Source: Nostoc sp. (GTDB lineage Bacteria; Cyanobacteriota; Cyanobacteriia; Cyanobacteriales; Nostocaceae). From it: a DNA stretch of 64,000 nucleotides. Positions 12,710 to 35,485 of the stretch are shown here, in pieces. Under the pieces are notes generated by a model. That model made no database searches and had not been told where the DNA came from. It saw nothing but the letters and a program-made list of their open reading frames with translations. A program made the translations under genes and the position numbers. Numbering within the stretch: position 1 is the stretch's first letter; every line of letters begins with the position of its first letter. The DNA is taken from positions 42 through 64,041 of the forward strand of contig NZ_JBALDL010000073.1 in the NCBI RefSeq assembly GCF_036917465.1, in the 5' to 3' direction.

Positions 12710-12766
12710 GAGTTTGTTGTTATGAGAGATGGGGCGTATCGTTCGGAAAACAAGTTTGTCTCTCGG

Positions 12767-12855
12767 AGATCCCCCCAACCCCCCTTAAAAAGGGGGGCTT
12801 TTCCCGATCTTTACCCCCTTTTTAAGGTGGTCGCCGCAGGCGGGGGGATCTTATC
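12767..12855. repeat. GC-rich multi-hairpin dispersed repeat (same core as the MITEs at 4008 and 7523)
   Basis: AGATCCCCCCAACCCCCCTTAAAAAGGGGGG...CCCCCTTTTTAAGG...TCGCCGCAGGCGGGGGGATCT. Confidence 0.75.
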
Positions 12856-12881
12856 TGAAACCTATTTAGATGTGGGGGAAT

Positions 12882-13112
12882 TTGAGCCTTTGAGCCTGAA
12901 CGTTGAGCCTTTTTACTCTGACGTTGAGCCTTTGAGCCTGAACGTTGAGCTTTTTTACTCGAACGTTGAGCCTTTTAGCTCGAACGTTGAGCCTTTTTAC
13001 TCGAACGTTGAGCCTTTTAGCTCAAACGTTGAGCCTTTTTACTCGAACGTTGAGCCTTTTTACTCGAACGTTGAGCCTTTTTACTCGAACGTTGAGCCTT
13101 TTTACTCGAAAC
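12882..13112. repeat. 21-bp tandem repeat array, 11 units (array 1)
   Basis: Consensus TTGAGCCTTTTTACTCGAACG, head-to-tail with no spacers. Confidence 0.92.
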
Positions 13113-13170
13113 TCGATGTTAGTGAACACCAAAAAATAAATTATTTCATCTTGTGGGATGGGCATCTTGC

Positions 13171-13371
13171 CATTGGTGTCAACTTAACGTGAAAGCCTTG
13201 TAAAAACTGAATATTGAGTTCACTCACCACTCACTACGATCTGCATTACCCCACCCTAACCCTCCCCTTATAAAGGGGAGGGAACCGGATTTACTCTTTC
13301 CCCCCTTTATAAGGGGGGATTAAGGGGGGTAGGCTGTGGAACAAAGCTTCGAGCTTAAGTTGACACCAATG
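13171..13371. mobile_element. 201-bp MITE with 17-bp TIRs and 9-bp target-site duplication
   Basis: CATTGGTGTCAACTTAA ... TTAAGTTGACACCAATG flanked on both sides by GCATCTTGC (13162-13170 and 13372-13380). It is inserted into a GGGCATCTTGCCCG...CGGGCAAGATGCCC palindrome. Confidence 0.85.
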
Positions 13372-25672: not shown

Positions 25673-27646
25673 TTATGAGAGAGGAAATTGATTAGCAGTT
25701 TGTTGTTGAGATTCTTGGGTTTTCTGGAGGGTAGGTTGAGAATTACATGATTTAGTTAGAGAAGACTGCAACAACTGGCGGATGGATGTAGCTTCCTTAT
25801 GGTCAGGCGAGACAGTTAAAAATTCATTTAGGTCTTGGATAGCTTCACCAATAGATTCTGAAGAAGCACCCTTTGATAAGGCATAGCGATATAAGTGGTC
25901 TGCTTGTTGAGTGTATTGAGCAGCCAAACAGTAAAGGGCTAAATTAAAGGCATTACGCCAGTCTTTAACATTTTTTTTGCAATGCTCTGTAGTAAGCTTG
26001 ATGGCAGGCACTAGTACAGTTCGTGCTTTGTCTGGTTGGTTAACAGCTAAGTATACTAAAGCGTGATTATACATAGCATCTTCATAACGTTTTTCCTCAT
26101 CAGCTTTTAACCCATTTGCTAATTGCTTACCCCAATACTTAACTTCAGCAGAATCCCCATCTTTACCAGCTTGAAGCATTGTTTTTGCATATTGTTGGGC
26201 AAAAATGGGTTGATTTTTGAGTAGAACCAGAAATTCCTTAAGAGCTACAAGTAAATTCCTTTGCGGTGACTGACATAACTTATGGTACAACACGTTTAAT
26301 GTGTGACTTTGCCAGCTAGGATCGCGCTGTTTGTTATCTTCCTCTAATTGCAAATCATTCCGTAAGTTGTCATAATATTTTGCCAACTTATTATGTATAT
26401 CAGCCCAACCTTGCGGGGATGAAAGGCGCTTGTGGCATAACATTTGGGTTTTGACGACATCATGATAAACCCAGCCGTTGCTATGTTCGTTGACAAAGGA
26501 TGTTTCTTTGAGCCAAGTAAATAGCTCATCAGCTTCTTCTTCTGTTCTTAACTGGGCTATAATATCCCGGTTCAAGCACCGAGGAATGGCAGCATCAAGC
26601 ACCACTTGTCGCCGTTTGGGATCGTCAATCCATCTTAAAAAGCTTTTTACAGCACTGCTGCTAGGCTCAATTACTTGGTTAGGGTCATTGGGATGAGCAT
26701 CTGCTAGCATTTCTATTAGCAGGGGTAAGTTTCCAGAAAGATTTAAAATCACTTCAATAATGTGCTTGTCTGTAATGCCTTTGCGAGTTAGATATTGTTG
26801 GGCTTCTTCTTCTGTAAAGGGTTCCAGATGCAAACGAATTATTGATCCTTCGTAAGATGCCCAGTCATTTTTATCTAATTCTTGCCGACTGGCAATAGTT
26901 ATCAATATATTGGGAGATACTTCACCGTGGCGACCCTCTAGAATCTCTCGCAGCCAGTTATCTAGAAATTCTCCGGTGCGTTCTGAGGTATCGAAAAACA
27001 GGACAACAGGAATTTTATCAGCAATTTTAGAAATATCTTGCAAAAATAGCGGGGTCAGAACTTCTTTAGGTTGTTTAACTAAATGTACCTCATCTTTATT
27101 GGTTATTTTCTTAGCAACATAAGATGCCCATTCTCCAGCTTGGTTAGCCAAAGCATCCCCATCTATAACATCAAATACAGCACCACCAACGGGAGCTAGA
27201 CGCGCCAGATGCACACCAGTTTTTACGATACTTTTCCCGACAAAAGCACTAAAGCCTTGAGGAGCATCTGGATCTGTTTCTAATTCTTGGCACTTTTGGC
27301 AGTAAACTTTGTAGCGATCGCTAAACTGCGTTAGTCTGTAACCTTGCTGTTCTAACTCCTCAGCTATACGCCCCATGACTTCTGGTATAGTTTTTTCAGC
27401 TTCATCAATGTAAGCCGAAATCATTTTTGCTTCGTCAGTAATTTTCCGAAACTGCCGCAGCAAGGTAGTTTTACCAACTCCGCCTTGACCACAAACATTA
27501 AACAGAAAACAATGGCGATTGTCTTCTAGGGATAAAGCTAAATTTTGGCTAAATCGGTTTATTTGGTCTTCACGTCCCACAAAATTTGATTGTTGACGTT
27601 GCTTAATAATATCTTGTAAACTTTTAGGCTTGTTTTGTGTATTCAT
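25673..27646 (-). CDS. STAND/AAA ATPase-TPR paralog with most TPRs deleted
   Basis: FVGRE, Walker A GQGGVGKTT, Walker B VVLFFDTSE, SGNLPLL. Collinear with 28110-30701 except for a ~230-aa internal gap and a frameshifted C-terminus. ATG of MNTQNK at ~27646 (track start TTG 27658). Confidence 0.85.
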   Translation of the reverse strand: MNTQNKPKSLQDIIKQRQQSNFVGREDQINRFSQNLALSLEDNRHCFLFNVCGQGGVGKTTLLRQFRKITDEAKMISAYIDEAEKTIPEVMGRIAEELEQQGYRLTQFSDRYKVYCQKCQELETDPDAPQGFSAFVGKSIVKTGVHLARLAPVGGAVFDVIDGDALANQAGEWASYVAKKITNKDEVHLVKQPKEVLTPLFLQDISKIADKIPVVLFFDTSERTGEFLDNWLREILEGRHGEVSPNILITIASRQELDKNDWASYEGSIIRLHLEPFTEEEAQQYLTRKGITDKHIIEVILNLSGNLPLLIEMLADAHPNDPNQVIEPSSSAVKSFLRWIDDPKRRQVVLDAAIPRCLNRDIIAQLRTEEEADELFTWLKETSFVNEHSNGWVYHDVVKTQMLCHKRLSSPQGWADIHNKLAKYYDNLRNDLQLEEDNKQRDPSWQSHTLNVLYHKLCQSPQRNLLVALKEFLVLLKNQPIFAQQYAKTMLQAGKDGDSAEVKYWGKQLANGLKADEEKRYEDAMYNHALVYLAVNQPDKARTVLVPAIKLTTEHCKKNVKDWRNAFNLALYCLAAQYTQQADHLYRYALSKGASSESIGEAIQDLNEFLTVSPDHKEATSIRQLLQSSLTKSCNSQPTLQKTQESQQQTANQFPLS

Positions 27647-27749
27647 AACAAGATTCAATTTTGAGGCGCTAATTTATCTAAAAAGAACTACTAAATAAAC
27701 AAGGTGTATTTCGGAATTTATTAAATTTTTTTTAAGTAATTTTTATGCA

Positions 27750-27980
27750 TTGAGCTTCTGAGGTTCGATGTTGACCTTCCGAGGCTCAATGTTGACCTTT
27801 CGAGGCTCGATGTTAACCTTCCGAGGTTCGATGTTGACCTTCTGAAGCTCGATGTTGACCTTCTGAGGCTCGACTTTGACCTTCTGAGGCTCGATGTTGA
27901 CCTTCTGAGGCTCGATGTTGATCTTCCGAGGCTCGACGTTGATCTTCCGAGGCTCGACGTTGATCTTCTGAAGTTTTAAC
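27750..27980. repeat. 21-bp tandem repeat array, 11 units (array 2)
   Basis: Consensus TTGACCTTCTGAGGCTCGATG; ends ~100 bp upstream of the distal ATPase start. Confidence 0.92.
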
Positions 27981-28109
27981 GAAAGTACCAGATATTGAAT
28001 CGGAATCTTACGATCGCTTACCTACAGCTTAATAACAAAGCGATCGCTTACAGTCTCTCATTAGAAGGGCAAAGTTGTAAAAGCGATCGCTTAATATTTG
28101 TAGTAGAAA

Positions 28110-30701
28110 TTACATAACCTCAGTTAGAGAAGACTGCAACAACTGTCGCATGGATGTAGCTTGCACATGGTCAGGGAAGACAGTTAAAAAGTCATTCAGG
28201 TCTTGGACTGCTATACGGATACGCTCTAAGGAAGCACCTTGAGATATGGTATGCCGATATAACTGCTCTGCTGGTTGATTATATTGAGCAGCCAAATAAT
28301 AAAGAGCTAAGTTAAAGCTATTACGCCAGTTTTTAGAATCTTTTTCGTAATACTCTTTAGCAAGCTTCATAGCAAGCGCCAAGTCAGCCCGTGCTTTGTC
28401 TGGTTGGTTAAGGGCTAGGTAAGTTAAAGCTCGCTCATACAAATACCAATCATCTTGGTAATTTCGGCTAAGTACAATAGTGTGGTCTAAATATTGCGGT
28501 GCTTCATGGTAGCGCTGCATTCGTTGGTAAATAAAACCCCTAAATCCCGTGGCTGGTGTCCATTGGAAATTACCGTCAAGTTCAATGGCACGGTTAAAGT
28601 CTTCCAATGCCTCATTATAGAGTTGCATATAGCGATAAGTATCACCTCTACTGCCAATCGCCCATTGATAATTCGGGTCAATTTTAATGGCGCGGTTTAA
28701 GTCTTGCAGTGATTCTGAGTAACGCTGCATAAAGCGGTAAGTTACACCTCTATGTGCTAGCGCCCATTGGTCATTAGGGTCAAGTTGAATGGCGCGGTTT
28801 AAGTCTTGCAGTGCTTCTTGGTAGCGTTTCATTAGGCGGTAAGCGATACCCCGAGTGGCGATCGCCCATTGATAATTTGGGTTAAGCTCAATAACACAGT
28901 TAAAGTCTAGTAGTGCTTCTTGGTAGCGCTGCATTTGGCAGTAAGTAATACCTCGAACTGTTAAATATTCAACTTCTTCAGGTACTAACTTTGTCGCCTG
29001 GGTTAAATCTTCCAAAGCTTTTGAGTATTGATTAGATTGAGAGTAAATATAACTACGCCAATCTAACGCTACTGCACGCCATTTGTCCTCAAGACTAGCA
29101 TCACTTAACAGTGTTGTGAGCATTTCAGCCGCAGCTTCATAACGTTTGTCTTCATAGGCTTTTAACCAATTGGCTAGTTGCTCACCCCAACGTTGAACTT
29201 CAGCAGAATCGACATCTTTACCAGCCTGAAGCATTGTTGCTGCCCAAAATTGGGCAAAAGTTAGTTGATTTTTGAGAGCAGCAAGGAATTCATTGAGAGC
29301 TATAGGTAAGTACTTTTGTGGTGATTGGCATAAGCGGTGATACAAAACGTTGAGCTTATGACTTTGCCAAGTTTGATCTCCCCAGGCTTTGATTTCATCC
29401 AATTGCAGATCATTTCGCAAGCTGTCATAATATTCTGCCAATTTGCTATGCAGATCAGCCCAACCTTGCGGCGATGAAAGACGCTTGTGGCGTAACATTT
29501 GCGTTTTAACCACATCATGATAAGCCCACCCGTCAGTACGTTCGTTAACAAAAGATGTTTCTTTTAACCAATTAAATAGCTCATCTGCTTCTTTTTCTCC
29601 TCTCAACTTGGCTATAACATCCCGATTCAAACACCGAGGAATGGCAGCATCAAGAGCAACTTGTCGCCGTTTGGGGTCATCAATCCATTTTAAAAAGCGT
29701 TCTACAGCACTGCTGCTAGGTTCAAATACTTGGTTTGGGTCATTGGGATGAGCATCTGCTAGCATTCCCACTAGCAGGGGTAAGTTTCCAGAAAGGCGCA
29801 AAATCACTTCAATAATGCGGTTGTCTGTAATGCCTTTGCGAGTTAGATATTGTTGGGCTTCTTCTTCTGTAAACGGTTCCAGAGGAAAACGAACTATTAA
29901 CCCTTCGTAAGGTGTCCAATGATTTTTATCTAATTCTTGGCGACCGGCGATAGTTATCAATATATTGAGAGATACTTCACCGTGGCGACCATCCAGAATC
30001 TCTCGCAGCCAGTTATCTAGAAATTCTCCAGTGCGTTCATAAGTATCAAAGAACAAAACAACAGCAGTTTTTTCGGCAATTTTAAAAATATCTTGCAAAA
30101 ATAACGGAGTCAGGACTTCTAGTGGTTCTTGAACTAAGCGCACCTCATCTTTATTTGTGATTTTCTTAGCAACATAAGATGCCCATTCTCCGGCTTGGGT
30201 AGCAAAAGCATCCTCATCTACAAAATCAAATACAGCACCACCAACGGGAACACGACGCGCTAAACGCACACCTGTTTTAAAGACGGTTTTGCCTACGAAA
30301 GCGGAAAAACCTTGGGGAGCATCTGGATCGGTTTCTAATTCTTGACGCTTTTGGCGGTAAACTTTGTAGCGTTCTGTAAACTGCGTTAGTTTGTGACCTT
30401 GCCGTTCTAACTCTTCAGCTAGACGACCCATGACTTCTGGTATAGTTTTTTCAGCTTCATCAATGTAAGCGGAGATAATTTTTGCTTCTTCAGCAATTTT
30501 CCGAAATTGTCGTAACAGAGTACTTTTGCCAACTCCACCTTGACCCCAAACGTTATACAAAAAACGACGGCGAGTGTCTTGTACATGCAATGCCAGATTT
30601 TGGCGAAATTGATTGGTTTGGTCTTCACGACCCACAAAACCTAATTGCTGTCGTTGCTTAATAATATCTTGTAGGTTCTTGGGCTTGTTTTGTGGGTTCA
30701 T
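28110..30701 (-). CDS. STAND/AAA ATPase with C-terminal TPR array (NLR-like architecture, no N-terminal effector)
   Basis: FVGRE, Walker A GQGGVGKST, Walker B VVLFFDTYE, GNLPLL, YHDVV, then about 6-7 TPRs (WAIATRGIAYRLMKRYQEALQDLNRAIQLDP). ATG at 30701 (track start TTG 30713). Confidence 0.9.
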   Translation of the reverse strand: MNPQNKPKNLQDIIKQRQQLGFVGREDQTNQFRQNLALHVQDTRRRFLYNVWGQGGVGKSTLLRQFRKIAEEAKIISAYIDEAEKTIPEVMGRLAEELERQGHKLTQFTERYKVYRQKRQELETDPDAPQGFSAFVGKTVFKTGVRLARRVPVGGAVFDFVDEDAFATQAGEWASYVAKKITNKDEVRLVQEPLEVLTPLFLQDIFKIAEKTAVVLFFDTYERTGEFLDNWLREILDGRHGEVSLNILITIAGRQELDKNHWTPYEGLIVRFPLEPFTEEEAQQYLTRKGITDNRIIEVILRLSGNLPLLVGMLADAHPNDPNQVFEPSSSAVERFLKWIDDPKRRQVALDAAIPRCLNRDVIAKLRGEKEADELFNWLKETSFVNERTDGWAYHDVVKTQMLRHKRLSSPQGWADLHSKLAEYYDSLRNDLQLDEIKAWGDQTWQSHKLNVLYHRLCQSPQKYLPIALNEFLAALKNQLTFAQFWAATMLQAGKDVDSAEVQRWGEQLANWLKAYEDKRYEAAAEMLTTLLSDASLEDKWRAVALDWRSYIYSQSNQYSKALEDLTQATKLVPEEVEYLTVRGITYCQMQRYQEALLDFNCVIELNPNYQWAIATRGIAYRLMKRYQEALQDLNRAIQLDPNDQWALAHRGVTYRFMQRYSESLQDLNRAIKIDPNYQWAIGSRGDTYRYMQLYNEALEDFNRAIELDGNFQWTPATGFRGFIYQRMQRYHEAPQYLDHTIVLSRNYQDDWYLYERALTYLALNQPDKARADLALAMKLAKEYYEKDSKNWRNSFNLALYYLAAQYNQPAEQLYRHTISQGASLERIRIAVQDLNDFLTVFPDHVQATSMRQLLQSSLTEVM

Positions 30702-30803
30702 TACAAGATTCAATTTTAAGATGCTAATGCTTACAGAATAACTACTAAATATACAAAGTGTATTTTGAAATTTATGAAATTTTTTGGGGTAATTTATTAT
30801 GAA

Positions 30804-31034
30804 TTGACCTTATGAGGCTCGATGTTGACCTTTTGAGGCTCAATGTTGACCTTCGGAGGCTCGACGTTGACCTTCTGAGGTTCAATGTTGACCTTCGGAG
30901 GGTCGACGTTGACCTTCTGAGGCTCGATGTTGACCTTCTGAGGCTCGATGTTGACCTTCTGAGGCTCGACGTTGACCTTTTGAGGCTTAACGTTGACCTT
31001 CTGAGGCTCGGCGTTGACCTTCTGAGGCTCAAAA
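30804..31034. repeat. 21-bp tandem repeat array, 11 units (array 3)
   Basis: Consensus TTGACCTTCTGAGGCTCGA(T/C)G; ~100 bp upstream of the full-length ATPase. Confidence 0.92.
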
Positions 31035-31077
31035 ATGCCTTGGCGACTTAGCGCTTATCGCTGGAGTCTAATATGGA

Positions 31078-31163
31078 TCTAACCCCCAGCCCCTTCCCTA
31101 CAAGGGAAGGGGAGTAAGATTTAAAGCCTCTCGCCTTGTAGGGGAGAGGTTTGGAGAGAGGTC
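31078..31163. repeat. GC-rich multi-hairpin dispersed repeat
   Basis: CCCCTTCCCTACAAGGGAAGGGG and CCTCTC...GAGAGG hairpins; architecture similar to 13247-13331 and 22254-22315. Confidence 0.6.
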
Positions 31164-31346
31164 AAAGTCTATTTTAGATAAACGAGATGCGCTATAGAAA
31201 TCGCGGCTACACTAGACTTTACCCGCCTACGCGGGTTTCAAGAATCTTTGGATATAAAACGCGAAAAGGGCATAACATTGTTATGCCCCTACAAATTATG
31301 TGTATTTTAGTAAGTTTACAAGTGGTATGATTACCTGTTTTAAACT

Positions 31347-31820
31347 TTAGCTAACTGGGACTTCGGGTTGCTTTTTCTTAGAACGGCGGTTAAACCTGCG
31401 TCCCATCTCATCTATGACTCCATCTAAACCAGTGACATCACCGCTAGCTTTGGCATAGCTATAAACTGCTAATGCTGCTGCATAAGCTTCGCTGGCAGAG
31501 GCTATACAGGTATCATCTACCAGTTCTTGCAGTTGGGTTAGAGACAAAAACACTGGATACAACGATTCAAATAGCGCTAAATCTCGGCGCATCTCTTCTA
31601 AATCAAAAGAACGGGGCAAAAAGTTAGGATTCTGTGTCGCCACTTCTAAGGCTTTGCTGACGAAAGCCCGACTTTTATCTCCCATCTTCAACATTGTTCG
31701 CCGTTCTTCGGGGGTCAAATCAACCAAAAACGGTAACTTTTCTTTAATTGTAGCGATCGCTTGCATGACTGCTTCTTTATCGGCTGGGGATAAGGTGGCA
31801 CTGATGCGATTATCTGCCAT
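31347..31820 (-). CDS. 157-aa alpha-helical hypothetical protein
   Basis: GGAG SD 8 nt before ATG. MADNRISATLS...LPFLVDLTPEERRTMLKMGDKSRAFV..ALE...SEAY.AAL..Y looks like a real conserved protein, but I cannot assign a function. Confidence 0.85.
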   Translation of the reverse strand: MADNRISATLSPADKEAVMQAIATIKEKLPFLVDLTPEERRTMLKMGDKSRAFVSKALEVATQNPNFLPRSFDLEEMRRDLALFESLYPVFLSLTQLQELVDDTCIASASEAYAAALAVYSYAKASGDVTGLDGVIDEMGRRFNRRSKKKQPEVPVS

Positions 31821-31892: not shown

Positions 31893-33605
31893 TTAATAAT
31901 GAGTTGCTGACTTGCGATGATGCACGGCTGTAATGCCGTCATTATCTAACAATTTGCCATTCTCGATAGTTGCATAAACTAGCCAATGGTCGCCAGATTC
32001 CATCCGGTTTTGTACGGAACATTCCAGATATGCTAAGGCATCGGTAAGTATGGGAGAACCGTTTTCAGCAACTTCTGCGGCGATATCGGCAAATCGGTCT
32101 TGTCCTGGGCCGAAGGGTTTGAGGAAGTGCTTCATTAATCCCAAATGATTCCCTTCTTTAAGGATATTGAGGACAAATTTGTTTCCTGTGTGCGTCAGTG
32201 TTTCTACTGCCCGCTCTTTAGCGACGGCTATAGTTAAACCAGGGGGATTAAAGCTAGCTTGAGCTACCCAGGAGGCTAACATGGCACTGGAGCGATCGCC
32301 TTCTTTTGCTGTCATAACGCACAAAGAACCGACAATCCGACCAACTGCTTGTTCTACAGTAGTAGCAGGTTGACTTGGCAATCGAACTTTTCTAGCTTTT
32401 TTCAATGCTTGGGCAAAGTCAGTTCCGGCTTCTTCACACAATTGTAAAGTGGCATCGTCGGGTTTGAATTTTACGCGGATGGTATCAAAACCAAACCGAT
32501 AGCCAGCATCTTTTAATTTAGCTTCAATTAAATCAACCGCTTCCCCACTCCAGCCAAAGGAACCAAAAACACCAGTAAGTTTATTATTAGTCGCGGTAGA
32601 TAACACAATTCCTAAGGCTGTTTGCACGGGTGTAGGTGCATGACCGCCGAGAGTTGGAGAACCGATGATGAAACCACCGGCTTTTTCCACAGCCGCCCGG
32701 ATTTCTTCTGGTTCGGTAAATTCGCAGTTAATCGATTCTACAGCAACGCCAGCTTTGGTGATGCCACGAGCGATCGCTTGGGCTAATGTGGCTGTATTTC
32801 CATAAGCTGATGCATAAATTAACGCCACTGTCAAATCAGCAGATGTTTGCTGTTGACTCCATTCTCGGTAAGCTTTGGTCAATTCAATTAAGCCATAACG
32901 CACCAAAGGCCCGTGTCCAGTGGCATACATTCGCACGGGAAAATCGGCTAGTTTATCCAACGCTGTTTCTACTTGACGGGCGTGGGGAGCCATGAGGCAA
33001 TCAAAATAATAGCGCCGATCTTCGTTATATACTTCCCAACCTTCATCAAATACCTGATCTCCACAAACATGCGCCCCAAATAACTTATCTGTGTACAGAA
33101 CTTCTGTTTGCGGATCGTAGGTGCAAAGTTGATCTGCATAGCGCGGGTTAGGGGTGGGAATAAATTGTAAATTATGCCCGTTACCCAAATCTAGGATTTC
33201 TTCGCCCCGCATGACCAGAATTTGCAAATCTGGATTTTCCAGCGCACTACGTAAATTTATCGCCCCTGGATTAGAACAGACAAAGGTAATTTGCGGAGCA
33301 ATTTCTAATAAAGCTTTTAAAGTTGCAGCGCGGTTAGGATTTATGTGTCCCAAAATTACATAATCTAAGTCTTCCAGATGGAAACGCTGCTGTAAGGCTT
33401 CTAAATAAATGTCCGTAAACGTTTCCCCTGGAGGGTCAATGATGGCAGTTTTATCGCTTTCGATTAAATAAGAGTTAGCTGTTGTACCCTTAGCAAGAGC
33501 ATATTCAATTTCAAATCTGAGCCTTGACCAACTGCGCGATCGCAGTATTCTTGTATCTGTCGCTATTGGATAAACTTGAACATCACGGGGTTTATTTGTT
33601 GACAT
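31893..33605 (-). CDS. flv1: Flavodiiron protein Flv1 (non-canonical iron site)
   Basis: Beta-lactamase-like, flavodoxin (YASAYGNT) and flavin-reductase domains. GHINPNR replaces the canonical HTEPDH. A versus B paralog not certain. Confidence 0.9.
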   Translation of the reverse strand: MSTNKPRDVQVYPIATDTRILRSRSWSRLRFEIEYALAKGTTANSYLIESDKTAIIDPPGETFTDIYLEALQQRFHLEDLDYVILGHINPNRAATLKALLEIAPQITFVCSNPGAINLRSALENPDLQILVMRGEEILDLGNGHNLQFIPTPNPRYADQLCTYDPQTEVLYTDKLFGAHVCGDQVFDEGWEVYNEDRRYYFDCLMAPHARQVETALDKLADFPVRMYATGHGPLVRYGLIELTKAYREWSQQQTSADLTVALIYASAYGNTATLAQAIARGITKAGVAVESINCEFTEPEEIRAAVEKAGGFIIGSPTLGGHAPTPVQTALGIVLSTATNNKLTGVFGSFGWSGEAVDLIEAKLKDAGYRFGFDTIRVKFKPDDATLQLCEEAGTDFAQALKKARKVRLPSQPATTVEQAVGRIVGSLCVMTAKEGDRSSAMLASWVAQASFNPPGLTIAVAKERAVETLTHTGNKFVLNILKEGNHLGLMKHFLKPFGPGQDRFADIAAEVAENGSPILTDALAYLECSVQNRMESGDHWLVYATIENGKLLDNDGITAVHHRKSATHY

Positions 33606-33611
33606 AGCTTT

Positions 33612-33760
33612 ATGGGGGATTGGGTACTGGTGATTGGGGATTGGGGATTGGGTACTGGTGATTGGGGACTGGGGATTGGGTATTTAGAAAACTTTTCCCC
33701 AGTTCCTAGTCCTCAGTTCCTAGTCCCTAGTCCCCTCCCTAGTTCCTAGTCCCCCAGTCC
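33612..33760. repeat. Composite STRR1 element (two heptamer arms around a fixed core)
   Basis: (GGGGATT/TGGGTAC)n - GGGTATTTAGAAAACTTTTCCCC - (CCTAGTC)n. Confidence 0.8.
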
Positions 33761-35485
33761 CTAATAGTGGTTTCCAACTTTGCGATGATGTACAGCAGTT
33801 AAAGCATCGGGTTTAGAAACTCGTCCGGCGTAAACGGTGCTGTATACTGCCCAATGATCGCCGCAATCCATTCTACTGACGACTTCGCACTCCATGTAGG
33901 CGAGGGCATCGTTGAGGATCGGCGCACCATTTTCGGCTGGCTGGGTTCTCACACCTTGAAAGCGATCGGCACCAGGGGCGAATCGTTTCAAAAAGTGCTT
34001 CATAAGTGGTTGGAAATTGCCTTCTTCTAAGATGTTGAGAACAAAGCGATCGCCTACTTGCATGAGTGATTCAATTGCCCGATCTTTGGCGACTGCAATG
34101 GAAAATCCCAAGGGTTTGAAGCTGGATTGAGCAACCCAGGAGGCTAACATGGCACTGGATACATCACCTTTTTTGGCAGTAATAATATAGAGTCCGCCGC
34201 TAAGTCTACCAAGGGCTTTATCTAAGTCAGCACCAAGGGATTTCATCGCTTTGATGCTGCGATCGCGTGTTACCCATTGAGCTAAGTCTGTACCTGCTTC
34301 TTCACACAACTTGTAGGTATTTTCTGTAGGCGCTTCTTTAATCCGAATCGCTGGAAAAACTGTTGCCAAACCCAAATTACGGAATTTACTCACTAAAGGA
34401 TCTATCGGCTCATCATCGCCACCGCCACTTTCAAACACGCCGATGGCTTGCTTTTCTTTGGCAGATCCTAAAACTGTGCTGAGTGCAGATTGGATACTCG
34501 CAGCCCCAGAAGCCGGAGGTAGACCAACGATTAGTCCAGCACATCGGCTTACTAGTTCCCGCAGTTCTTGTAAATCGACTTCAGATCCCAAATCGACAAT
34601 TTCCACGGCGACACCGGTTTTACCGATACCGTTGGCAATTGCTTGGGCGAGGCGATCGCTATATCCGTATTCGGAAACGTAAAATATCCCAATTATGGTT
34701 TCTGGCTTGGCTTGGGCTTGACTCCAAGCGCGGTAACGTCCAACTAATTCCTGAACATTGTGAGATAATAATGGGCCGTGTCCTGTGGCAATCATACTGA
34801 TGGTTTTCAGTTCCGCCATGCGTTTAAGGGCAGACAAAACTGACCGAGCATTCGGCCCCATCAAGCAATCGTAGTAGTAATGAAAATCTTCTTCGATCGC
34901 TGCTAAGTCTTCATCAAAGGTGCTATCTGAGCAATAGTGCAACCCAAAAGCGTCGCAGGTGTAGAGAGTTTTGGTTTTGTGGTCGAAGCTGAAAATGGTA
35001 TCCGGCCAATGTAAATTTGGGGCAATCACGAATTCAAATTCATGACCATTGCCCAAATCTAAGCGATCGCCATTTTTCACAATCCGCCGTTTGAATGGCT
35101 GATGTACGAAATCCTCAAGAAACTGAATCGCCACCTTAGAACCGACAACAGTAATTTCTGGAGCTATTTGCAGCAAATCTTTAACTAAACCGCTATGGTC
35201 TGGCTCGGTATGGCTGATAATTAAATAATCAATATCTGTTGGCTTGATTAGTCCAGTGAGCGTATCAAAATATAGTTGACGAAACTTTTCGTGAGAGGTA
35301 TCAACTAAGGCTGTCTGCTCCCCACGAATAAGAAACGAGTTATAAGTAGTACCGTTTTGCAACCCAAACTCAATATCGAAGCGATCGCGATCCCAGTCCA
35401 AAGAGCGAATAGCCGTCGTCTCTTGACCGATTTCCACAGTCTGTATGGTGAGCCGTTTTTCAGTTTTTTCGGTGAGCGCTACCAT
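33761..35485 (-). CDS. flv3: Flavodiiron protein Flv3
   Basis: FGLQNGTTYNS, SHTEPDHSG, PNLHWPDT, CDAFGLH, GHGP canonical diiron ligands, plus flavodoxin and reductase domains. Confidence 0.92.
   Translation of the reverse strand: MVALTEKTEKRLTIQTVEIGQETTAIRSLDWDRDRFDIEFGLQNGTTYNSFLIRGEQTALVDTSHEKFRQLYFDTLTGLIKPTDIDYLIISHTEPDHSGLVKDLLQIAPEITVVGSKVAIQFLEDFVHQPFKRRIVKNGDRLDLGNGHEFEFVIAPNLHWPDTIFSFDHKTKTLYTCDAFGLHYCSDSTFDEDLAAIEEDFHYYYDCLMGPNARSVLSALKRMAELKTISMIATGHGPLLSHNVQELVGRYRAWSQAQAKPETIIGIFYVSEYGYSDRLAQAIANGIGKTGVAVEIVDLGSEVDLQELRELVSRCAGLIVGLPPASGAASIQSALSTVLGSAKEKQAIGVFESGGGDDEPIDPLVSKFRNLGLATVFPAIRIKEAPTENTYKLCEEAGTDLAQWVTRDRSIKAMKSLGADLDKALGRLSGGLYIITAKKGDVSSAMLASWVAQSSFKPLGFSIAVAKDRAIESLMQVGDRFVLNILEEGNFQPLMKHFLKRFAPGADRFQGVRTQPAENGAPILNDALAYMECEVVSRMDCGDHWAVYSTVYAGRVSKPDALTAVHHRKVGNHY

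What the first reader, a model, noticed from the sequence alone, without database searches (positions are those of the whole stretch)
25673..31820. Candidate undescribed cassette: small helical gene + (11x21-bp array - leader - STAND ATPase-TPR) x2
Seen: one co-oriented block in which a 157-aa helical gene is followed by an 11-unit 21-bp array, a ~100-bp AT-rich leader and an 863-aa ATPase-TPR gene, then a second 11-unit array, an alignable leader and a paralogous ATPase. The duplicated unit therefore includes the non-coding array and leader. Established: P-loop STAND ATPases with TPR sensors are the bacterial NLR-like architecture; known antiviral members (Avs) carry an N-terminal effector. 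These proteins have only about 20 aa before FVGRE, so any effector would act in trans. Inference: the small protein may be the effector or adaptor, and the arrays (21 bp is two helical turns, so sites lie on one face of the DNA) may be phased binding sites or a copy-number-tunable regulatory element. This array + adaptor + NTPase layout is formally like partition cassettes, though the ATPase is not ParA/ParM-like.
Basis: partly seen in the sequence, partly recalled or inferred. Interest (0 to 1): 0.78.

Follow-up and report, generated by a model that had tools for sequence, protein, structure and literature searches.

The report
Small gene's 21-bp array, STAND island
The two 21-bp repeat arrays are real, but they travel with the small upstream gene and belong to a Nostoc-wide family of intergenic repeat arrays, so they are not a dedicated part of the ATPase genes, which occur elsewhere without them.

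Summary
On the minus strand lie a 157-aa gene (p157), a 21-bp x 10.8 array, a 102-bp leader and an 863-aa AAA16-TPR STAND ATPase. A 21-bp x 10.6 array, a 103-bp leader and a 657-aa paralogue follow.

The proposed three-part cassette is only partly supported.
1. The arrays belong to a dispersed 21-bp family. I found 129 arrays at 28 or more conserved intergenic sites in Nostoc, with a median of 11 copies. A third array lies in this window between treZ and treY.
2. The array follows p157, not the ATPase. Of 33 p157 loci, 30 carry a 21-bp array within 700 bp downstream, including paralogues beside unrelated genes. About 45 ATPase orthologues without adjacent p157 have none.
3. Behind p157 lies a variable island of STAND genes, each with its own array. 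Restriction-modification genes sit there in other cyanobacteria.
4. Between genera the unit sequence is better conserved than the coding DNA around it, which points to sequence-specific function.

My best reading is phased protein-binding sites, with p157 the leading candidate binder. That is inferred, not shown. I found no description of this array family in the literature searched.

The parts
31347..31820 (-). p157: a 157-aa conserved cyanobacterial gene of unknown family, predicted all-helical. It is the feature the array actually travels with.
   Evidence: ORF. More than 1100 homologues, all unnamed. No Pfam, NCBIfam, PADLOC, PHROG or PDB match. AlphaFold2 model all-helical, pLDDT 62. 30 of 33 p157 loci have a downstream 21-bp array.
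31254..31290 (-). Intrinsic-terminator-like hairpin of p157: an 11-bp stem with a 3-nt loop, followed by UUUUCGCGUUUU.
   Evidence: RNA fold of 31235-31350, z = -3.47. Sequence.
31058..31235 (-). Inserted small hairpin repeats (ctctcccctacaaggcgagag, ccccttcccttgtagggaagggg) that split a stretch which is continuous in L019.
   Evidence: Sequence, compared with L019 and L002, where ...gccgcgatttctaatcgccaaggcattttt runs straight into the array.
30804..31030 (-). Array 1: 21 bp x 10.8, unit GAGCCTCAGAAGGTCAACGTC (type A).
   Evidence: TRF score 335. Sequence. Orthologous arrays of 3-15 copies in 20 or more Nostoc genomes.
30702..30803 (-). Leader 1. Its proximal ~75-95 bp (ATAAATTTCAAAATACA..TATTTAGTAGTT..TGTAAG..) is conserved across Nostocales even where the array is absent or distant, so it is the likely promoter and 5' UTR of the ATPase.
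28110..30701 (-). ATPase1: 863 aa with a P-loop (GQGGVGKS), a helical arm, about five canonical TPRs and a C-terminal cap. It has no N-terminal effector domain.
   Evidence: Pfam AAA_16 at 31.1 bits and strong TPR_1/TPR_2 hits. No PADLOC hit. 456 or more homologues, 50-93% identical across filamentous cyanobacteria.
27972..28109 (-). Spacer between the ATPase1 stop and array 2. It carries three HIP1-like GCGATCG sites and shows no homology to the region upstream of array 1.
   Evidence: Sequence. 45% identity.
27750..27971 (-). Array 2: 21 bp x 10.6, unit GAGCCTCAGAAGGTCAACATC.
   Evidence: TRF score 311. 86% identical to array 1.
27647..27749 (-). Leader 2, 78% identical to leader 1.
25673..27646 (-). 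ATPase2: a 657-aa paralogue, 68% identical to ATPase1. It lacks the canonical TPR block and keeps the C-terminal cap. It is an old paralogue with its own orthologues in many Nostoc genomes.
   Evidence: Orthologues P0049-P0062. L014 at 96% identity.
12882..13110 (+). Array 3: a related 21-bp x 10.9 array (type B, unit GAGCCTTTTAACTCGAACGTT) between treZ and treY. It shows that the family is not tied to the ATPase.
   Evidence: The same position is occupied in 14 other Nostoc genomes.

Best explanation
The block is two nested things, not one three-part machine.

1. **An old pairing of p157 with a 21-bp array (shown).** The array lies just beyond p157's terminator. It is kept behind p157 orthologues and paralogues throughout the Nostocales, whatever gene comes next. 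Outside the Nostocales the same position holds 1-5 degenerate units around a terminator-like hairpin.

2. **A variable island of STAND NTPase genes behind that pair (shown).** Each STAND gene has its own copy of the array. Here these are two old AAA16-type paralogues. In other genomes an NNH3-NACHT-pentapeptide gene is present as well or instead. The duplicated segment starts exactly at the array edge. That fits duplication or unequal recombination with the array as break-point, which is an inference.

3. **A wider family (shown).** The arrays belong to a Nostoc-wide family at 28 or more conserved intergenic sites.

4. **Most likely mechanism (inferred).** The arrays are sequence-specific protein-binding sites spaced two helical turns apart, acting on DNA independently of orientation. 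I suggest they form a landing pad that insulates or silences neighbouring genes. p157 is the best candidate for the binding protein, because each p157 lineage keeps its own unit type next to its own gene.

The ATPases do not need the array. Their own promoter and leader is the conserved proximal stretch of about 75-95 bp.
For: **The family is dispersed.**
- These loci and the window hold 129 arrays. The 108 complete arrays have a median of 11 copies, interquartile range 8-12.
- Flanking proteins define 28 or more distinct sites, including treZ-treY and kdpA-kdpB.

**The array follows p157.**
- 30 of 33 p157 loci have a 21-bp array within 700 bp downstream.
- This includes paralogues in unrelated contexts, L187 and L188, and genera from Scytonema to Chlorogloeopsis.
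- About 45 ATPase loci with no adjacent p157 have none.

**The island is variable, with arrays between its genes.** I saw at least 8 gene arrangements.

**The unit sequence is under selection.**
- The consensus is 18-19 of 21 identical in Tolypothrix and Spirirestis.
- In the same loci coding DNA is 78% identical and flanking non-coding DNA 42-46%, which is chance level.
- 657 type-A units are near-invariant at 15 of 21 positions.

**Unit type goes with p157 lineage across genera.**
- 157-aa p157 goes with GAGCCTCAGAAGGTCAAC.
- 155-aa p157 goes with TCAAGTGAGAACGTT.

**The duplication boundary lies at the array edge.**
Against: - Nothing shows that p157 binds DNA. It matches no family or fold, the model is of low confidence, and its net charge is about neutral.
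- Most arrays, including every type-B array, have no p157-like gene nearby, and I found no third paralogue that could match type B.
- L136 and L091 have type-1 p157 but variant units.
- The match between unit type and p157 lineage could simply reflect shared descent of a duplicated gene-plus-flank.
- My search pattern fixed 12 of the 21 positions, which inflates apparent conservation in the genome-scan sample. Only the loci retrieved through proteins are unbiased.
- Enrichment of STAND genes next to arrays is weak: 3 of 28 sites.
Confidence: 0.45

Rival explanations
1. The arrays are neutral or selfish minisatellites. They would be tandem amplifications of a motif from the p157 terminator region that persist by slippage and gene conversion, with no function for p157 or the ATPases. 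Array 2 would have been copied along with a gene duplication.
For: - Copy number varies from 3 to 18 between orthologous arrays.
- All intergenic contexts occur and there is no orientation bias, 14 versus 12 sites.
- ATPase orthologues work without arrays.
- Outside the Nostocales the site holds a terminator-like hairpin whose arm resembles the unit.
- Other 21-bp arrays of unrelated sequence exist in the same genomes.
Against: - The unit sequence is better conserved between genera than coding DNA, while flanking non-coding DNA is unalignable. Concerted evolution within a genome cannot explain conservation between genera.
- Positions are held across genera.
- Copy number peaks sharply at 11-12.
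Confidence: 0.27
2. p157 would be the trans-acting effector or adaptor of effector-less STAND ATPases, and the arrays their dedicated regulatory element.
For: - The order p157, array, STAND gene, all co-oriented, recurs with four different STAND architectures.
- A p157 paralogue is followed by a remnant of the ATPase C-terminus.
- Each STAND gene in the island has its own array.
Against: - About 45 ATPase orthologues have neither p157 nor an array nearby.
- 5 of 8 loci reached through p157 have no co-oriented STAND gene downstream.
- One partner, the caspase-nSTAND1-WD40 gene, already carries its own effector.
- p157 is far more conserved (70-96%) than is usual for conflict-system components.
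- PADLOC gives no hit above noise.
- Arrays lie at many housekeeping loci.
Confidence: 0.12
3. The arrays act as RNA, in 5' UTRs or between cistrons. Repeated Shine-Dalgarno-like AAGG motifs or small hairpins would modulate translation, processing or stability.
For: - Several arrays lie inside probable operons (treZ-treY, kdpA-kdpB) or end about 12 nt before a start codon at site 3.
- Each unit carries GAAGG.
Against: - p157 has its own terminator upstream of array 1.
- The fold z-score is only -1.8 and there is no Rfam match.
- Arrays occur in both orientations and between convergent genes.
Confidence: 0.08
4. The 21-bp period is selected for intrinsic DNA curvature, independent of any protein, because two helical turns per unit add bends in phase.
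For: - The period is kept while the sequence diverges, for example in Scytonema and Komarekiella.
- Unrelated 21-bp arrays exist.
- Type-B array 3 is predicted to be strongly curved, more compact than 99.7% of random window segments.
Against: - The type-A arrays of this finding are predicted to be no more curved than random DNA: end-to-end over contour length 0.87-0.91, against a median of 0.92.
- That calculation used wedge parameters recalled from memory, so it is crude.
- Curvature would not explain conservation of the unit sequence.
Confidence: 0.04
5. The array encodes a heptad-repeat peptide, (EPQKVNI)n.
For: - Variation among 657 units is highest at the third positions of that frame.
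- The frame is open, and at this locus it ends in a stop directly after the array.
Against: - A start codon is present in only 22 of 51 arrays, and the N-termini are not conserved.
- Four-fold degenerate sites are invariant, for example CCT in all 657 units.
- Arrays lie in both orientations and inside operons.
Confidence: 0.02

Closest known systems
REP/BIME elements with their cognate RAYT gene (enterobacteria, Pseudomonas)
   Same: - Short, imperfectly palindromic units (core CTCAACGTTGAG) are scattered over many intergenic sites, including inside operons, and often sit in clusters of about a dozen.
- A single small gene is flanked by the repeat class that matches its own lineage.
   Different: - The units here are strict head-to-tail direct repeats of 21 bp, not alternating inverted REPs.
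- p157 is predicted all-helical and has no Y1/HUH transposase match.
- No evidence of mobility was obtained, and flanks share no common termini across all sites.
Plasmid centromere and iteron arrays (F sopC 12 x 43 bp; R1 parC; R6K and pPS10 22-bp iterons)
   Same: About ten tandem units spaced an integral number of helical turns apart lie next to the gene of a small protein. In those plasmid systems that small protein binds the array.
   Different: - The sites are chromosomal and number 28 or more.
- There is no ParA, ParM, TubZ or Rep gene.
- Plasmid and viral collections gave no match.
- The neighbouring NTPase is a STAND protein and is dispensable for the array.
Bacterial NLR-like STAND NTPases (Avs, bNACHT; conflict systems of multicellular bacteria, PMC7159879, PMC13581612)
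   Same: - A P-loop NTPase with a TPR sensor-like C-terminus.
- It lies in a variable island with NNH3-NACHT-pentapeptide genes, and in other taxa with caspase-nSTAND1-WD40 genes.
   Different: - There is no effector domain.
- PADLOC gives no hit above noise.
- The family is conserved at 50-93% identity and sits at a syntenic chromosomal position across filamentous cyanobacteria. That looks more like a housekeeping regulator than a patchy defence gene.
Cyanobacterial STRR heptamer repeats and the NsiR1 tandem sRNA array
   Same: These are abundant tandem intergenic repeats in Nostocales genomes, and 21 is 3 x 7.
   Different: - The unit has no heptamer sub-periodicity.
- The units are too short to carry a promoter plus an sRNA.
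- There is no Rfam match.

Membership tests
STAND (AAA16/NACHT-type) NTPase with TPR sensor | Walker A P-loop followed by a Walker B acidic motif in an NTPase domain recognised by family models | tested here: inconclusive
   GQGGVGKS and VVLFFDTYE can be read in the sequence. Pfam AAA_16 scores 31.1 and 31.8 bits, below the 32.6-bit cut-off. NACHT, NB-ARC and nSTAND5 hits are faint only.
STAND (AAA16/NACHT-type) NTPase with TPR sensor | C-terminal superstructure-forming repeats | tested here: met
   ATPase1 hits TPR_1 at E = 6.5e-39 and TPR_2 at E = 6.8e-31. ATPase2 has no TPR model hit and keeps only the C-terminal cap.
Avs / known antiphage STAND systems | N-terminal or C-terminal effector domain fused to the NTPase | tested here: not met
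   Only 21 residues precede FVGRE, and no effector family was found.
Avs / known antiphage STAND systems | Match to curated defence-system models | tested here: not met
   PADLOC gives no hit for ATPase1 or p157. ATPase2 has one noise-level hit at E = 0.007.
Avs / known antiphage STAND systems | Protection against phage, triggered by a phage protein | not testable with these tools
   This needs a phage challenge experiment.
Plasmid partition cassette (ParA/ParM/TubZ + centromere-binding protein + centromere array) | A partition NTPase of the ParA, ParM or TubZ type | tested here: not met
   The NTPase is of the AAA16/STAND type.
Plasmid partition cassette (ParA/ParM/TubZ + centromere-binding protein + centromere array) | One or a few arrays per replicon, located on a plasmid or near an origin | tested here: not met
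   28 or more chromosomal sites. No match in PLSDB plasmids or viral contigs.
Plasmid partition cassette (ParA/ParM/TubZ + centromere-binding protein + centromere array) | A small adaptor protein with an RHH or HTH DNA-binding fold | tested here: inconclusive
   p157 matches no family. The AlphaFold2 model has pLDDT 62, and Foldseek gives nothing at E < 1.
REP/BIME-RAYT | Dispersed intergenic, imperfectly palindromic repeats, often clustered | tested here: met
   The core is CTCAACGTTGAG.
REP/BIME-RAYT | The cognate flanked gene is a Y1 (HUH) transposase | tested here: not met
   p157 has no Pfam hit even at E <= 10 and is predicted all-helical.
CRISPR array | Repeats separated by unique spacers | tested here: not met
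   The units are contiguous, with no spacers.
STRR heptamer repeats | A 7-bp unit | tested here: not met
   TRF reports period 21 only for these arrays. The three heptamers within a unit are dissimilar.
Described RNA families (Rfam 15) | Covariance-model match at or near the gathering score | tested here: not met
   Only chance miRNA-model hits, far below gathering scores.

The most novel reading that the evidence does not exclude
p157 founds an unrecognised family of small helical proteins that bind tandem 21-bp arrays. Under this reading each paralogue recognises its own unit type. One cognate array lies beside its own gene and further arrays are scattered through the chromosome. The protein-array complexes gate or insulate neighbouring genes, notably the NLR-like STAND genes that accumulate behind p157.
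Probability: 0.2. Interest if true: 0.8.

Novelty: new variant of a known kind. Interest (0 to 1): 0.55.

Why it matters
- **A possible new regulatory layer.** If the arrays are bound sites, Nostocales genomes carry a previously unnoticed layer of phased DNA elements at dozens of conserved intergenic positions. p157 would be their cognate small protein. Both can be tested directly in Nostoc punctiforme or Anabaena.
- **A concrete case of how NLR-like gene islands grow.** Islands of STAND genes may grow and shuffle in multicellular bacteria by recombination at repeat arrays that flank each gene.
- **A warning for annotation.** Spurious ORFs of 80-110 aa are readable in these arrays, such as SLRRSTS and EPQKVNI repeats. 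The arrays also break short-read assemblies: many loci ended in an array or in runs of N.

Tried and rejected
- **Coding reading, (EPQKVNI)n.** Rejected: no consistent start codon, N-termini not conserved, and four-fold degenerate sites invariant.
- **Intrinsic curvature as the shared property.** Rejected for type-A arrays with a wedge-model calculation. The parameters were recalled from memory, so the result is crude.
- **RNA element.** No Rfam match and a fold z-score of only -1.8.
- **Sigma-70 promoter in the leader.** The consensus scan found none, and the count for the region equals the shuffle expectation.
- **Orientation rule relative to the downstream gene.** None at the level of sites, 14 versus 12.
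- **Common termini that would mark a mobile element.** No flank is shared across all sites. Subsets do share motifs: AAACTTTAAGTTYTAAC at six sites and GTTTGGRRTTTGGTACT at three.
- **Identity of p157.** Pfam, NCBIfam, PADLOC, PHROGs, PDB sequence and profile searches, AlphaFold2 and Foldseek all gave nothing usable.
- **ATPase against the PDB by sequence.** No hit.
- **Plasmid and viral collections.** No array found.
- **Literature.** Four searches, including the unit sequences themselves, found no description of the family. Many subscription papers are not covered by the search.
- **Enrichment of STAND genes next to arrays.** 3 of 28 sites, against my rough estimate of 3-4% expected. This is suggestive, not significant.


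Full report
**1. What is in the window**

All parts lie on the minus strand.

- The 157-aa gene p157 is at 31347..31820.
- Array 1 is at 30804..31030: period 21, 10.8 copies, unit GAGCCTCAGAAGGTCAACGTC.
- An AT-rich leader of 102 bp follows.
- ATPase1 is at 28110..30701, 863 aa from the ATG.
- Array 2 is at 27750..27971, 10.6 copies.
- A 103-bp leader follows.
- ATPase2 is at 25673..27646, 657 aa.

The 12-mer core AACRTYGAGCCT, allowing one mismatch, occurs 32 times in the window. Shuffles predict 0.72.

Pfam gives ATPase1 a sub-threshold AAA_16 hit plus strong TPR hits. ATPase2 gets AAA_16 but no TPR hit. p157 matches nothing in Pfam, NCBIfam or PADLOC.

The two proteins are 68% identical. 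ATPase2 lacks the block of canonical TPRs.

At the DNA level the arrays are 86% identical, the leaders 78% and the first 1560 nt of coding sequence 84%. The 100 bp upstream of each array are 45% identical, which is chance level. The duplicated segment therefore begins at the array edge.

p157 is followed by a strong terminator-like hairpin at 31254..31290, with z = -3.5. About 180 bp of inserted small hairpin repeats then precede array 1.

**2. The arrays are members of a dispersed family**

TRF found a third 21-bp x 10.9 array at 12882..13110, between treZ and treY. It shares the core.

I scanned one genome per species for two adjacent cores. Nearly all are Nostoc, with Spirirestis and Heteroscytonema also present.

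These loci and the window hold 129 family arrays of two broad unit types:
- type A, GAGCCTCAGAAGGTCAAC[AG]T[CT];
- type B, GAGCCTTT..GAACGTT.

Both are built around the near-palindrome CTCAACGTTGAG. The 108 complete arrays have a median of 11 copies, an interquartile range of 8-12 and a mode of 11-12.

Clustering by flanking proteins gives 28 or more distinct genomic sites, each occupied in several species. From reading the flanking proteins, examples are:
- the p157 locus, 31 arrays;
- treZ-treY, 15 arrays;
- an FHA-protein and NB-ARC-TPR locus, 18 arrays;
- a glycosyltransferase and DedA locus, 15 arrays;
- kdpA-kdpB;
- a shikimate dehydrogenase locus.

At the level of sites there is no orientation rule relative to the downstream gene, 14 against 12. 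Arrays also lie between convergent genes.

No array was found in plasmid or viral collections. Four literature searches, including the unit sequences themselves, found no description of the family.

**3. The array goes with p157, not with the ATPase**

I retrieved 56 ATPase-related loci from metagenomes without reference to arrays. Combined with the ATPase loci from four direct look-ups, about 45 loci have the ATPase start, upstream sequence and no adjacent p157. None of them has an upstream array. They include three Nostoc loci whose ATPase is 87-89% identical to ATPase1. Every clear array was in a locus where p157 sits upstream.

In L131 the ATPase keeps only the proximal part of the leader. 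In place of the array there is a heptamer repeat and different upstream genes.

The converse also holds. p157 homologues reached through the protein itself carry a 21-bp-period array 60-490 bp downstream, whatever follows:

| Locus | Organism or type | Array |
|---|---|---|
| L124 | Scytonema | x10.2, unit GTTTCAAGTGAGAACGTTCCT |
| L130 | Nostoc NIES-3756 | x6 |
| L187 | 155-aa paralogue in Nostoc NMS9, beside kinase and Uma2 genes | x7.6 |
| L188 | 163-aa paralogue in Komarekiella, beside beta-helix genes | x9.2 |
| L190 | Chlorogloeopsis | x10.3 |
| L128 | Gloeocapsa | degenerate |
| L129 | unnamed cyanobacterium | degenerate |

Over all 33 p157 loci in hand, 30 have such an array.

Outside the Nostocales the position holds a long terminator-like hairpin. 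One of its arms resembles the array unit, so the arrays probably arose by amplification of that element.

**4. What lies behind p157 is variable and rich in STAND genes**

In Nostoc the stretch between p157 and the next conserved gene shows at least 8 gene arrangements:
- ATPase1 plus ATPase2;
- either ATPase alone;
- an NNH3-NACHT-pentapeptide gene plus an ATPase;
- that NACHT gene followed by a PIN-domain gene;
- a convergent multicopper oxidase and no STAND gene.

Every STAND gene in the island has its own array 70-120 bp upstream. Arrays therefore sit at most gene junctions in the island.

Pfam confirms the STAND architectures: NNH3-NACHT-pentapeptide, NB-ARC-TPR at a second site, and NNH5-NACHT at a third.

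Elsewhere p157 is followed by MmeI-like or Type ISP restriction genes, or by a caspase-nSTAND1-WD40 gene.

In Chlorogloeopsis an ATPase-family gene lies upstream of p157. One p157 paralogue is followed by a remnant of the ATPase C-terminus.

p157 therefore borders a hotspot for conflict-type genes. An occasional co-duplication of p157 with the ATPase is possible. A constant partnership is not seen.

**5. The unit sequence is under selection**

This comparison uses loci retrieved through proteins, so it carries no search bias. In Spirirestis (L137) and Tolypothrix (L134) the unit consensus is 19/21 and 18/21 identical to the window's.

In the same loci:
- p157 and ATPase coding DNA are 78-81% identical;
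- the non-coding DNA between p157 and the array is 42-46% identical, which is chance level;
- the array lies 285-552 bp from the ATPase start, not about 100 bp, because of inserted repeats.

Only the proximal ~95 bp of leader is conserved there. That stretch is the likely ATPase promoter and 5' UTR.

Among 657 type-A units, 15 of 21 positions are 95% or more invariant. My search pattern fixed 12 of those 21 positions, so this figure is partly circular.

Two p157 lineages each keep their own unit type across genera. The 157-aa form goes with GAGCCTCAGAAGGTCAAC and the 155-aa form with TCAAGTGAGAACGTT.

**6. Mechanism**

Four things are shown:
- the arrays are a dispersed, position-conserved, sequence-conserved family of period 21;
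- they are linked to p157;
- each STAND gene in the island has one;
- the ATPases can do without them.

The rest is inferred. A unit conserved at the nucleotide level and repeated every two helical turns is what a row of sites for a DNA-binding protein looks like. So is a function that does not depend on orientation or on a fixed distance to the neighbouring promoter.

p157 is the best candidate binder, because its gene always carries the cognate array and the unit type follows the paralogue. I have no evidence that p157 binds DNA. Its fold could not be assigned. Type-B arrays have no matching paralogue.

The (array-STAND)n layout is most simply explained by duplication or unequal recombination at the arrays.

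I put about 0.45 on the whole statement. I put about 0.2-0.3 on p157 being the binder.

**7. Rivals**

- **Neutral minisatellite (0.27).** It fits the copy-number variation and the dispensability of the arrays. It does not fit conservation of the unit between genera.
It fits the recurrence of p157, array and STAND gene. It fails on the array-less ATPases and the p157 loci without a STAND gene.
- **RNA-level action (0.08).** No supporting structure or family was found.
- **Intrinsic curvature (0.04).** Type-A arrays are not predicted to be curved, although type-B array 3 is.
- **A coded heptad peptide (0.02).** Evidence against it is.

**8. Comparison with known systems**

The closest functional analogue is REP/BIME with RAYT. 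There too, intergenic repeats are dispersed and a gene is flanked by its cognate repeat class. p157 is not a Y1 transposase, however, and the units here are direct repeats.

Iterons and plasmid centromeres share the geometry but not the context.

The ATPases resemble bacterial NLR-like STAND proteins (PMC7159879, PMC13581612). They lack an effector domain and match no defence model. They are conserved and syntenic across filamentous cyanobacteria, which argues for a regulatory or housekeeping role.

**9. Verdict**

It is wrong about the partner: the array belongs to p157 and to a genome-wide family, not to the ATPase.

As far as I could search, the family is undescribed. I class it as a new variant of a known kind, dispersed intergenic repeats with a cognate gene. 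Interest is 0.55.

Noticed in passing
window 12882-13110: A third 21-bp x 10.9 array (type B, with a T-tract) lies between treZ and treY. The same position is occupied in 14 other Nostoc genomes, and a wedge model predicts the array to be strongly curved.
   Followed up: yes
window 31058-31235: Nested small hairpin repeats (ctctcccctacaaggcgagag; ccccttcccttgtagggaagggg) are inserted between the p157 terminator and array 1. The stretch is continuous in L019 and L002. They look like the small dispersed mobile repeats of the Nostocales.
   Followed up: partly
window 27972-28109: Three HIP1-like sites (GCGATCGC or GCGATCG) are packed into the 138-bp spacer between the ATPase1 stop and array 2.
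   Followed up: no
window 31893-35485: Two adjacent flavodiiron genes (570 and 574 aa) lie directly upstream of p157. With treZ and treY 17 kb away, this resembles the all0167-all0178 region of Anabaena PCC 7120, where flv1B and flv3B are the heterocyst-specific pair. That comparison is from memory.
   Followed up: no
window 33615-33763: Between the two flv genes lie two heptamer arrays of roughly complementary sequence (GGGGATT... and TCCCCAG...). Together they could pair into a long hairpin.
   Followed up: no
L056 5906-6035 and 7218-7379; L022 1411-1602; L035 5652-5750; L042 4800-5044; L006 1746-1943: Other 21-bp tandem arrays of unrelated sequence occur in the same Nostoc genomes, several with small palindromic cores such as GCATTGTGAATGC and GATGAATCATC. 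Period 21 dominates the non-coding minisatellites in these loci.
   Followed up: partly
L005, L010, L101, L102 (array flanks): Arrays at three sites share a flank motif, AAGTTTGGRRTTTGGTACTSAAAAC. All three have a STAND or STAND-like gene nearby (NB-ARC-TPR; NNH5-NACHT; a weak NACHT-like match in L101). Six other sites share AAACTTTAAGTTYTAAC. These are hints that an array plus its flank is copied as a unit.
   Followed up: partly
L009, L013, L017, L036, L041, L068, L086, L090, L110 (site 3): The array ends about 12 nt before the ATG of a DedA/TVP38-type membrane protein gene. The last degenerate unit supplies an AAGG(G)TGA Shine-Dalgarno-like motif there.
   Followed up: no
L129, L130, L187: A Uma2-family gene lies divergently 250-800 bp upstream of p157 in three unrelated loci. 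Uma2 genes are very numerous in cyanobacteria, so this may be chance.
   Followed up: no
L003, L021, L054, L065, L069 and many locus ends: Assemblies often break or carry runs of N inside these arrays, so published copy numbers are lower bounds and arrays are under-represented in draft genomes.
   Followed up: no
window 30772-31032 (-) and 30812-31051 (+); 12722-13192 (+): Mechanical ORFs of 79-156 aa run through the arrays, giving SLRRSTS, VDLLRLD and NVEPFYS heptad repeats. They are likely sources of spurious gene calls.
   Followed up: yes
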